Source: Perna viridis
Taxonomy: Eukaryota
Length of the DNA: 64,000 bases
Reading direction: 5' to 3'
NCBI GenBank assembly: GCA_037379345.1
Contig: CM074519.1
Location: forward strand, 22,532,103 to 22,596,102
Positions 59,801 through 62,800 of this stretch are shown one piece after another. The position numbers were made by a program. How positions within the stretch are numbered: the first letter of the stretch is position 1; every line of letters starts with the position of its first letter.

Positions 59801-62800
59801 AATTTCTGAAATATTGCAATGTCCTAGATTGTCACCTTTGGTGGCCATTTTATAAATGGTGGCAATCAGGTAAAAATAAATGATACGAACTCCGAAATTT
59901 CAATGAGACACAGCAAACAACAAAGTTTCATTAAAATTGCCCACTAAATAAAAATGTTATAAGCGTGAGAAAAAAGTTGATTTTGGTAACCATGAAATTT
60001 TCCGTTTTTCGATGGCAATGGACAACATATCGATCCGATCTGTTTGAATAATTTTATTAGACTCATTAAGTACTACCACCTTACCAAATTTCAAATTTCT
60101 AGCCACCTAGATTTCCGAGATATTGCAATGTCCTCGATTATGACCTTTAGTGACCATTCTAAAAGGCAGCATGATTTCTGAGATTTCAATGAGACACAAC
60201 ATACAATAAATTTTCACTAAAATTTCCCACTGAATAAAATTCGTAGATGTGAGAAAAAGGGGATTTTGGTATTCATAAAATTTTCAGTTTTTTAAGTTGC
60301 CATGGCAACGGACAACATATTGATTTTTTTTTTGCTCAATTCTCTTAGCCTCATTGAGTTCTATCATCATATTAGATTTCAACTTTCTAGTCACCCAGGT
60401 TTTCAAGATATTGCAATATCCTAGATTATGACCTTTAAGCGTTTCATGGAACAGTAGTCAAAAGATCTGATTCATCCTTTCTCAATACGATCTACCTACA
60501 TACCAAAATCCAGTTCATTCCCTTTTGCGATGTTCTCTAAAATTTCTGGACAAAAATCATTAGAAGAAAAAAAAAGAAGAAGAAACAGAAGAGTAATAAT
60601 ATGTCACCCGACATTTGCGTAGGGCGACATAATAAAAAGAAGAAAAAAATGGCAATATGTCGCCTGATATTCGTCTTAATACATCATGATATGTTTTAAA
60701 TTGTGCTAGAAGCAAGTCACATTTCGCTTTCCCCAAATGTTCTCAGAACCCAAAAATATTGAATTATGCATACAATTTTGATGGCATGCACATCTTTGGA
60801 GTAAGTCCTAACTTCTTACAAAGTTTCGTTCTAATCCCCTCTTTACATGTAATTACCGAAAAAACGAGCAGACAATTGCAAGTTCACCGGTTAAAATAAT
60901 AATAATGATAATAATAATACAGAAGAAACAGTGCAAAAAGAAGTAGTGTTTTTAATAATAATAAACGAAGCAAAAACAATAAGTCGCAAAACTTTGTTTT
61001 GGCGACTAAAGTATGATTACTGACACGCTTTCCAAATAATGCTAGCTGCTTGATATCAATATAGAGGTCTCAGTCCTCGTCACCATTTTCAGTACGAACT
61101 TTATCATTGACATTACAGTCACCAAGAGCCTAATTTGAGTTTGTAGGGAGATTAACTTGTAATACCGAGTATGGACCTTTATAGGTTTCGTATTTCTAAC
61201 AAAAAACAAAATGTGTTCTGTCTGTTCATAGCTCGCATCTTAAAACATTTTGAAAAGTAATGAAGAAAAAAAAACCTAGTTGAAGCATGACCCTGCATGT
61301 AAATACATGTCTTTGGTTGACGTAATACTGTTAATATCATGATTTTCAATTTTAAGAATAGCTAAATATATAACTTTGTCCTCTTACATGTACAGGTTAC
61401 ACTTGCCTCATGTTAGGTTAATGCGTTACCCTTCTATAAAAAATATATCTATCGTATTGGAAATCTAACTTACAATAGTCTTTACTCCGATAGCCTTTTC
61501 TATAAGAACAGTATTGTTTTCATAAGTACCAAATGTCCATTTCATCTCTCGAACGCCACTGTGAACATCGAATGCTTTAAACTGTATTGCTATTTCCGAT
61601 AAGTCTATACTATGATGTACAAAAAGTTGTTTGTGTCCGTTCCGTGTTAACCAAATGTCAGATATTTCCGGAACAGAACGGTCAATGTACACGGAAACAC
61701 TGTCATTGAGTGTGTGATTCATTATATCTGAAACTTGTAAGTGTAATGTAAACTCTTCACCATCAGCTTTTGCTGGATCAGCACATAAAGTTTCTGAAGT
61801 AAAATTTCCAACACTACCAGAAAGGATTTGATTGCCATCTCTAGTAAGAACAAAATAGAATTGTATAAGTCCATTAACATTCATTGTACCGGAAATTGGT
61901 AAAACACCAGTAGTTTGATCATACACTCCATTAATACCGCGTTCGTGCAAAATTGGTCGGAGGGGATTGTTTTTTATATAGAAATTGTTGAAAAATCTCT
62001 TCGCCCAAGAGAAGCACAATTGTTCATGATTGGTTTGCCAACGATATTGTGTAAGATTAGAAGCCGTCTGAACACGAACAGGATTAAAATTGTTTATTTT
62101 AATTCTAGACGTATTGTCATACAGAACAAACCGTCTCGCTTGTTTGACATTGTTGGCAAAATCCTTCACCTCAAGTAAAACTGCGTATAGCATTGGACTC
62201 CGTTGGGGTAACTCGATAACAATGTTAGTTTTATTTTTCGAAGTCGTCCAATTCCCCACAGATGTTTTATCTCTCATAAGAAGTGCTGGATCTGAAGATG
62301 TAACTTCATACAGCTGAATTTCGTAACTCTCTATGCCAGAGGCTAATGCAATTGCATCTGAATTATAGTCCGGATAAGGATCGATCCAGCCATCTATGTC
62401 AAGATGTATAGTACTTGCAGATGTAACTCTTGTGGACAGTTTCAGAGGATTGTCGTTACAGCGTCCTCTTTCAAAACAATGCGTTGGAGCTGCATTATCA
62501 TATATATAGCAAAGTCTTCTGAAAGTTTCTGTTTTTTCATATGTTATGTTCTTTGTTCCATTTCGAGTCAAATCTTTAGGTTTCAAATAGCCCCCTCCTT
62601 TTAATACAAACGTTAGGCATAATCTAAAAATAATTGTGATGTTTGACGTGTGTTTGTATCACATAAAAAAAAGCATACAAAAAATATTTCCTGATAATTT
62701 CAATTTCTCAATGCTACGAAATGCATTTTTACTACTATGTTATTTGAAATTGACAAGTCTTATTCTATCGGTCATTGATTTTAAAAAAAGTCTTTTTTAT

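What the first reader, a model, noticed from the sequence alone, without database searches (positions are those of the whole stretch)
61474..62623. Sharp identity switch inside exon 8: paralogues are a mosaic (gene conversion or chimera)
Seen: the first ~300 codons of exon 8 are only about half identical between A and B by eye. From 'DIMNHTLND' onward (A ~19203-19455; B ~61474-61725) the DNA is nearly identical, including third positions. High identity continues through exon 9, and introns 9 and 10 still align. It then falls again towards exons 18-20, whose introns do not align. Inference: a conversion tract or unequal crossover homogenised the central stalk while the N-terminal region stayed or became divergent. 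That variable-head, constant-stalk pattern would suit a recognition protein.
Basis: partly seen in the sequence, partly recalled or inferred. Interest (0 to 1): 0.65.

Follow-up and report, generated by a model that had tools for sequence, protein, structure and literature searches.

The report
Recombination mosaic in tandem gene copies
Two neighbouring copies of a large gene for a repeat-built protein, probably secreted, differ strongly in the first part of one big exon and then abruptly become similar, which marks past DNA exchange between the copies; this is a real but ordinary feature of tandem gene families.

Summary
Two head-to-tail paralogues lie on the minus strand: A about 6351-20364 plus upstream exons, and B 37435-50006 plus 61432-62623. 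In exon 8 (A 19203-20364, B 61474-62623) silent divergence drops sharply at A 19436-19460 / B 61707-61731. The head has pS 0.71 (dS at least 1.35, saturated). The rest of the exon has pS 0.14-0.21 (dS 0.15-0.25). None of 2000 shuffles reached the observed change-point statistic.

Over the whole gene there are three strata with non-overlapping bootstrap intervals:
- head: dS about 2
- centre: dS 0.25, from the exon 8 switch to mid exon 11, about 3.9 kb in A, with introns 9 and 10 at 75-80% identity
- tail: dS 0.59, introns not alignable

pN/pS is the same in all three (0.33-0.38). The head is therefore older, not faster-evolving, and the "recognition protein" idea gets no support.

The best reading is at least two DNA-level non-allelic recombination events (unequal crossover and/or gene conversion) after an old duplication. 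The exon 8 switch would be the edge beyond which homology is too low for exchange.

The protein is an array of divergent fibronectin-III-like modules behind EGF-like repeats. No third paralogue, orthologue or reads could be examined. This is a known kind of event and of modest interest.

The parts
61474..62623 (-). Exon 8 of copy B (1150 nt)
   Evidence: Open frame 61468-62658. Acceptor ttttag| and donor |GTAAGT read. Aligns with A 19203-20364.
61729..62623 (-). Diverged head of B exon 8 (old stratum)
   Evidence: 60-nt windows 0.43-0.72 identical to A. pS 0.71, dS at least 1.35, amino-acid identity 0.54. Longest perfect run 14 nt.
61474..61728 (-). High-identity tail of B exon 8; the breakpoint zone is 61707-61731
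   Evidence: 60-nt windows 0.87-0.98. pS 0.14-0.21. 59-nt perfect run from A 19436.
19203..20364 (-). Exon 8 of copy A (head 19458-20364, tail 19203-19457)
   Evidence: Open frame 19176-20390. Splice sites read. Aligned to B.
15514..19457 (-). Central, most recently homogenised stratum in A: exon 8 tail, intron 8, exon 9, intron 9, exon 10, intron 10 and the first part of exon 11
   Evidence: Silent differences at 109 of 826 conserved-residue codons. dS 0.25 [0.21-0.30]. Introns 0.75-0.80 identical. The 3' edge is statistical only.
46424..50006 (-). Central stratum in B, the part 3' of the large intron (end of intron 8 to mid exon 11)
   Evidence: blastn block A 14995-19045 = B 45904-50006 at 83.9%. 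100-nt windows 0.8-0.96.
6351..15513 (-). Tail stratum in A (rest of exon 11 to the last exon)
   Evidence: Silent differences at 344 of 1200 conserved-residue codons. dS 0.59 [0.52-0.67]. Introns give no blastn match.
37435..46423 (-). Tail stratum in B
   Evidence: Collinear blastn blocks restricted to exons. Per-exon dS 0.36-0.99.
50007..61431 (.). 11.4 kb present only in B's intron 8 (transposon pieces and a satellite); A has 113 unmatched nt at this place
   Evidence: Gap in collinearity. Tc5/pogo-type HTH ORF and a reverse-transcriptase fragment. Repeats of about 300 nt period. No gene remnants.
41440..41470 (-). One extra A in a run of eight in B's largest exon, which shifts the frame relative to A's intact 549-codon frame
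   Evidence: Alignment. B's frame is split into ORFs 41443-42495 and 40854-41534. Downstream codons still show pN/pS 0.3-0.5 (pN and pS).

Best explanation
A and B are tandem, same-strand paralogues of a large multi-exon gene. It encodes EGF-like repeats followed by an array of divergent fibronectin-III-like modules, and no membrane anchor was seen.

Their divergence is a three-layer mosaic made by DNA-level non-allelic homologous recombination after an old duplication.
- Event 1 (intermediate age, dS about 0.6) made everything from mid exon 8 to the 3' end alike. It was either an unequal crossover inside exon 8 that created a chimeric gene, or a very long conversion.
- Event 2 (younger, dS about 0.25) re-homogenised about 3.9 kb, from the same 5' edge to about mid exon 11, introns included.

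The switch inside exon 8 (A 19436-19460, B 61707-61731) is the recombination breakpoint of event 1. It then acted as a homology cliff. Upstream of it the copies share no perfect run longer than 14 nt, so later exchange could not pass.

Shown: the three strata, the sharp 5' step and the alignable introns in the centre. Inferred: the number and order of events, the homology-cliff argument, and crossover versus conversion.
For: **Layout.** The copies are collinear.

**Sharp step at silent sites in exon 8.** 0 of 2000 shuffles reach the statistic, in two separate tests.

**Whole-gene segmentation.** Run on 2169 conserved-residue codons out of 2983 aligned. It gives two splits (chi-square 62.7 and 67.5, each reached by 0 of 1000 shuffles). 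Silent-difference fractions are 74/143, 109/826 and 344/1200.

**dS.** The bootstrap intervals for the three strata do not overlap. LWL85, YN00 and ML agree with NG86.

**Homogeneous centre.** pS is 0.21 in the exon 8 tail, 0.21 in exon 9, 0.23 in exon 10 and 0.17 in exon 11a, against 0.37 in exon 11b.

**Introns.** The 3' part of intron 8 and introns 9 and 10 are 0.77, 0.80 and 0.75 identical. Intron 11 is 0.66 then 0.53, and later introns give no match. The event therefore acted on genomic DNA and not on cDNA, and codon bias or amino-acid constraint cannot explain it.

**Step versus ramp.** On the 3' side a step model fits better than a ramp: AIC 2082.3 against 2089.2-2090.7.

**Longest perfect runs.** Head 14 nt, exon 8 tail 59, centre 77, tail 27.

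**Literature (passages read).** Conversion occurs mainly above about 80% identity (PMC3924818). [quoted passage not shown]
Against: - Only two sequences exist in the window, so no tree incongruence or GENECONV-type test with a third sequence was possible.
- The 3' edge of the centre is not visibly sharp.
- The first roughly 150 nt of intron 8 do not align although they lie inside the supposed continuous tract.
- B carries 11.4 kb there that A lacks. Either the insertion is later, or the two sides were exchanged separately.
- GC3 is not raised in the centre: 0.34/0.32 against 0.30/0.27 in the head and 0.32/0.34 in the tail. There is thus no biased-conversion signature.
- 3.9 kb is long compared with the usual tracts. 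The mean is of the order of 10-100 bp in PMC3924818, and most are 50-200 nt in PMC3966223.
- B has a frameshift, so B may be decaying or the assembly may hold errors.
Confidence: 0.78

Rival explanations
1. There was one exchange only. Exchange starts near the exon 8 edge and tract lengths vary, giving a polarity gradient rather than two discrete events on the 3' side.
For: pS in 75-codon windows rises gradually from 0.13-0.30 to 0.3-0.6 towards the 3' end. The exon 11 boundary is not sharp by eye.
Against: The step model has the lower AIC: 2082.3 against 2089.2-2090.7. Slopes inside each stratum are close to zero.
Confidence: 0.15
2. Assembly artefact. B's exon 8, or its head, belongs to another family member and was joined to B through the repeat-rich 11.4 kb stretch, or inside the near-identical tract.
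For: Exon 8 of B is separated from exon 9 by 11.4 kb of transposon pieces and satellite. B also has a homopolymer frameshift, which could be an assembly error.
Against: - There is no N run at or near the switch; the only one is at 30442-30572.
- Frame and register are kept through the switch in both copies.
- The tract is 95% identical, not 100%, so it is not a collapse.
- There are no remnants of another copy's exons in the 11.4 kb.
- Even with a wrong join, the exon itself would still be a head/tail mosaic relative to A.
Confidence: 0.08
3. The duplication is young, and the head diverged fast under diversifying or relaxed selection. The step would then reflect selection, not history.
For: The head has the highest amino-acid divergence (identity 0.54).
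Against: - Silent sites are near saturation in the head: pS 0.71 against 0.21 in the centre.
- pN/pS does not differ (0.38 against 0.37 and 0.33), and no head window has pN above pS.
- Intron 7 does not align at all.
- Selection on protein cannot raise dS and intron divergence.
Confidence: 0.03
4. Constraint or codon bias alone keeps the tail of exon 8 and exon 9 similar, or the exchange went through cDNA and touched exons only.
For: pN is very low in the exon 8 tail, 0.025-0.037. The 5' part of intron 8 does not align.
Against: Introns 9 and 10 and the 3' part of intron 8 are 0.75-0.80 identical. This matches the third-position identity of 0.83 in the flanking exons.
Confidence: 0.03

Closest known systems
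Interlocus (ectopic) gene conversion between tandem paralogues, e.g. C. elegans col-12/col-13, act-1/act-3 and hsp70 (review PMC3966223, passages read)
   Same: Conflicting similarity between the 5' and 3' parts of neighbouring paralogues. Tracts reach into introns. Both genes have the same orientation and lie close together.
   Different: The block here is about 3.9 kb, at the long end of reported tracts. It is old (dS 0.25), not ongoing. Donor and recipient cannot be named.
Mosaic of high- and low-divergence regions in GOT1p1/GOT1p2 of the copepod Tigriopus californicus (PMC3728101, abstract read)
   Same: Paralogues with islands of high divergence next to homogenised stretches.
   Different: That case rests on population samples and apparently ongoing conversion. 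Here there is a single pair from one assembly, and no evidence that selection protects the diverged part.
Hybrid genes from unequal crossover in tandem modules, e.g. the RCCX module with CYP21A2 and the FN3-rich TNXB (PMC8362596, search listing only). Haemoglobin Lepore and opsin hybrids are recalled, not taken from any call.
   Same: A single breakpoint inside a gene gives one end from one lineage and the other end from another. The setting is a tandem array.
   Different: A single crossover predicts one age for everything 3' of the breakpoint. Here two ages are found. The neighbours in the array are outside the window.
EGF plus FN3-array extracellular proteins (tenascin-like or Tie-like architecture)
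   Same: The module profile finds FN3 domains of contactin-1 (5e53, E 1.6e-5), Dscam, titin and the angiopoietin-1 receptor. There is a weak EGF match upstream.
   Different: All Pfam matches lie below the curated cut-offs. No kinase, fibrinogen or membrane segment was seen. Relatives could not be searched.

Membership tests
Interlocus gene conversion / NAHR tract | A stretch whose silent-site identity between paralogues is significantly higher than that of its flanks | tested here: met
   Change-point statistics reached by 0 of 2000 and 0 of 1000 shuffles. Bootstrap dS intervals do not overlap.
Interlocus gene conversion / NAHR tract | Non-coding DNA inside the stretch shares the low divergence (a DNA-level event) | tested here: met
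   Introns 9 and 10 and the 3' part of intron 8 are 0.80, 0.75 and 0.77 identical. Exception: the 5' part of intron 8 does not align.
Interlocus gene conversion / NAHR tract | Tree incongruence between segments when orthologues or further paralogues are added | not testable with these tools
   The window holds only two copies.
Single unequal-crossover chimera | One breakpoint, with everything 3' of it of one age | tested here: not met
   There are two strata 3' of the breakpoint, dS 0.25 and 0.59. A crossover plus a later exchange remains possible.
Biased gene conversion footprint | Raised GC at third positions in the converted stretch | tested here: not met
   GC3 (A/B) is 0.34/0.32 in the centre, 0.30/0.27 in the head and 0.32/0.34 in the tail.
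Diversifying 'variable head' recognition gene | pN/pS raised in the head relative to the stalk, or above 1 locally | tested here: not met
   pN/pS is 0.38, 0.37 and 0.33. No 20-codon head window has pN above pS. Site models need more sequences.
Fibronectin type III domain (Pfam PF00041) | Score at or above the curated cut-off of 25 bits | tested here: not met
   The best whole-exon score is 19.5 bits. 4 of 18 modules match at E up to 1, the best at 3.1e-4.
Fibronectin type III domain (fold-level likeness) | A profile of the module finds solved FN3 domains; a beta-sandwich fold is predicted | tested here: inconclusive
   The profile finds FN3 chains, contactin-1 at E 1.6e-5. The exon 8 modules are not detected at significance.
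Assembly mis-join or collapse | A gap, loss of register or 100% identity at the switch; reads that do not span it | not testable with these tools
   There is no N at the switch, register is kept and identity is 95%. No reads were available.

The most novel reading that the evidence does not exclude
The two copies are part of a larger tandem array. In it, old and very different head cassettes (EGF-like repeats plus the two aberrant modules of exon 8) are repeatedly recombined onto a concertedly evolving FN3-like stalk, at a fixed junction inside exon 8. This would be a germline cassette-shuffling scheme for a family of extracellular binding proteins.
Probability: 0.07. Interest if true: 0.6.

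Novelty: new member of a known kind. Interest (0 to 1): 0.3.

Why it matters
It is a clean, well-measured example of a three-layer recombination mosaic in an uncharacterised family of large extracellular repeat proteins.

In practice, the age of this duplication cannot be read from a whole-gene dS. Trees or selection tests on the full coding sequence would mislead, so the gene must be split at A 19436-19460 and at about A 15514.

It also flags places where the assembly or annotation of copy B needs checking: the 11.4 kb intron and the homopolymer frameshift. Beyond that it does not open a new question.

Tried and rejected
**Family and structure searches**
- Pfam on eight large exon frames found only a sub-threshold fn3 match.
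- Three phmmer searches of single exons against solved structures found nothing meaningful.
- The ESM Atlas could not read a new sequence (after a frame slip).
The second try came after the 20 other calls that the tool asked for. No fold or fold search was therefore done.
- Rfam at gathering threshold gave 0 matches.
- Profile-profile and unfiltered HMM comparison of exon 8 with the module profile gave only non-significant, collinear hints.

**Comparisons that found nothing**
- B 62621-64000 against A 20381-30440. Exons 1-7 therefore cannot be compared.
- A 1-6400 against B 30601-37500: no conserved exon.
- Gene remnants in B's 11.4 kb intron stretch: none, only repeat copies.

**Signals looked for and not found**
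- A GC3 signature of biased conversion.
- A ramp instead of a step (less well supported).

**Not used**
That collection holds bacteria and archaea only, and this is an intron-rich eukaryote-type gene.
- Complex prediction. No binding claim is made.

Full report
**Setting.** The window is AT-rich, with GC 0.27-0.39 per 2 kb. It has one N run, at 30442-30572, which I left untouched. It has the look of an intron-rich invertebrate-type genome. I do not take it for human. Its organism could not be named.

All long open frames of the gene lie on the minus strand. blastn of the two halves of the window gives 14 matches:
- Eleven are collinear: A 6347-19045 with B 37431-50006, then A 19159-20374 with B 61432-62633.
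- The other three are dispersed-repeat copies.

So there are two head-to-tail paralogues. B carries 11.4 kb (50007-61431) in intron 8, where A has 113 unmatched bases.

All family, structure and profile searches were made exon by exon.

**The observation.**
- Proteins: they align with four small gaps.
- Nucleotide identity in 60-nt windows: 0.43-0.72 over the head, then 0.87-0.98 from A about 19460 / B about 61730 to the end of the exon. It collapses within about 15 nt of the donor site.
- Third positions: they differ at 163 of 310 codons before the best change-point and at 9 of 80 after it (chi-square 44.1; 0 of 2000 shuffles reach it).
- Codons with the same residue: 83 of 164 differ before and 7 of 70 after (chi-square 34.2; 0 of 2000).
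- Change-point position: the silent-site change-point is A 19436 / B 61707. Amino-acid identity starts seven codons earlier, at the D of DIMNHTLND, and those seven codons still hold four silent differences. From A 19436 a 59-nt perfect run follows. A whole-gene analysis puts the split at A 19514. The breakpoint therefore lies within roughly A 19436-19514, most likely 19436-19460.

**It is history, not constraint.** Head: pS 0.707 [0.626-0.791], dS 2.15 [1.35-unbounded]. Rest of exon 8: pS 0.14 over 80 codons or 0.21 over 83 codons.

Segmentation of the whole gene used silent differences in 2169 conserved-residue codons, out of 2983 aligned. It gives two significant splits and no more at p<0.01, and so three strata:

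| Stratum | Silent differences | dS | pN/pS |
|---|---|---|---|
| Head | 74/143 | 2.15 [1.35-unbounded] | 0.38 |
| Centre (to A about 15514, mid exon 11) | 109/826 | 0.25 [0.21-0.30] | 0.37 |
| Tail | 344/1200 | 0.59 [0.52-0.67] | 0.33 |

- LWL85, YN00 and ML give the same ranking per exon piece; YN00 failed on two pieces, and ML is unbounded for the head.
- Inside the centre, pS is even: 0.21, 0.21, 0.23 and 0.17, against 0.37 in the second part of exon 11.
- Non-coding DNA tells the same story. The 3' part of intron 8 is 0.77 identical, intron 9 is 0.80 and intron 10 is 0.75, close to the third-position identity of 0.83 in the centre. Intron 11 falls to 0.66 and then 0.53, and later introns and intron 7 give no match.
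- This excludes amino-acid constraint, codon bias and a cDNA route.

**Mechanism.** On the 3' side a two-level step fits better than a ramp: AIC 2082.3 against 2089.2-2090.7, with slopes inside the levels near zero. By eye, however, the exon 11 edge is soft.

I therefore read at least two exchanges after an old duplication. An older one made everything from mid exon 8 to the 3' end alike. A younger one covered about 3.9 kb of A, from the same 5' edge.

The shared 5' edge is expected if homology limits exchange. The head has no perfect run longer than 14 nt, against 59-77 nt in the centre. Conversion is reported mainly above about 80% identity (PMC3924818, passages).

Tracts of thousands of bases exist but are unusual; most are 50-200 nt (PMC3966223, passages). 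So an unequal crossover that made a chimeric gene is at least as likely as conversion for the older event.

With two sequences I cannot tell crossover from conversion, nor donor from recipient.

Points against a simple picture:
- The first roughly 150 nt of intron 8 do not align.
- The 11.4 kb in B must be later than the younger exchange, or else the two sides were exchanged separately. One repeat copy in it is 88.6% identical to a copy at 3785-4607, which is compatible with a later arrival but is weak evidence.
- GC3 is not raised in the centre.

**The functional gloss.** pN/pS does not differ among the strata, and no 20-codon head window has pN above pS. The head is older, not faster-evolving. 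Site models need more sequences, and exons 1-7 of B lie outside the window.

**What the gene is.**
- Pfam finds nothing above cut-off on the large exons; fn3 scores 19.5 bits against a cut-off of 25. It gives a weak EGF match on 25669-25884.
- An iterated profile of an 82-position module finds 43 full or partial matches in the minus-strand frames of both copies, from exon 9 to the last exon, and none in exon 8.
- A profile of 18 full modules (of those 43 matches) finds solved FN3 domains: contactin-1 5e53 at E 1.6e-5, then Dscam, midline-2, titin and the angiopoietin-1 receptor.
- 4 of the 18 modules match Pfam fn3 at E up to 1.
- Exon 8 gives only non-significant, collinear hints of the same module type. 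If these are right, the breakpoint lies about 20 positions before the end of a module, and the exon 8 tail starts a module that is completed in exon 9. This is inference.
- No conserved exon follows A 6351 / B 37435, and I saw no membrane segment. A secreted matrix-type protein is my guess.

**State of copy B.** One extra A in a run of eight at about B 41458 breaks the frame of the largest exon. Downstream codons still show pN/pS of 0.3-0.5 (pN and pS). The frameshift is therefore very recent or an assembly error.

**What stayed unchecked.**
- Reads.
- Supplements of the cited papers were not needed.
- I make no claim about what is or is not in print for this gene.

**Verdict.** The recognition idea is not supported. 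This is an ordinary though clean case of non-allelic exchange between tandem paralogues.

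Noticed in passing
window 50007-61431: B's intron 8 is 11.4 kb longer than A's (A's intron 8 is about 250 nt). The extra DNA holds transposon pieces and a satellite, and no remnants of the gene's exons.
   Followed up: partly
window 55743-56408 (+): 222-codon open frame with Tc5 transposase HTH (E 5.3e-20) and CENP-B N-terminal (E 7.8e-11) domains. This is the DNA-binding end of a pogo/Tigger-type transposase, without the catalytic part in this frame.
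   Followed up: partly
window 58100-60600: Array of diverged repeats of about 290-320 nt, 62-88% alike. A relative lies near 50780-51155.
   Followed up: no
window 3785-4607, 5692-5825, 25317-25597, 26523-26880, 57198-58060: Five copies or pieces of one dispersed repeat, 77-90% alike, some inverted. The copy in B's intron lies next to a weak reverse-transcriptase fragment at 57048-57554 (E 0.021).
   Followed up: partly
window about 41458 (-) and about 41393: B has one extra A in an A8 run that splits the largest exon into two frames. It also has a 9-nt in-frame deletion 60 nt further on. A is intact.
   Followed up: partly
window 19046-19202 and 61432-61473: The 5' part of intron 8 does not align between the copies, although the exon next to it is 95% identical and the 3' part of the intron aligns at 0.77. 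This is unexplained; an indel linked to the large insertion is possible.
   Followed up: partly
window 30442-30572: The only N run (131 N) lies between the two copies, upstream of A. It was not filled or looked up.
   Followed up: no
window 21662-21807: Tandem repeat of a 28-nt unit, 5.2 copies, 96% matches. It sits next to the best-scoring candidate upstream exon of A, 21364-21672.
   Followed up: no
window 24627-24866, 25669-25884, 27610-27732 (-): Small cysteine-rich open frames of EGF type upstream of A's exon 8, probably early exons. Only 25669-25884 gives weak Pfam EGF matches (E about 1e-3, below cut-off).
   Followed up: partly
window 9660-10160: About 500 nt in A's intron between the two largest 3' exons have no counterpart in B.
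   Followed up: no
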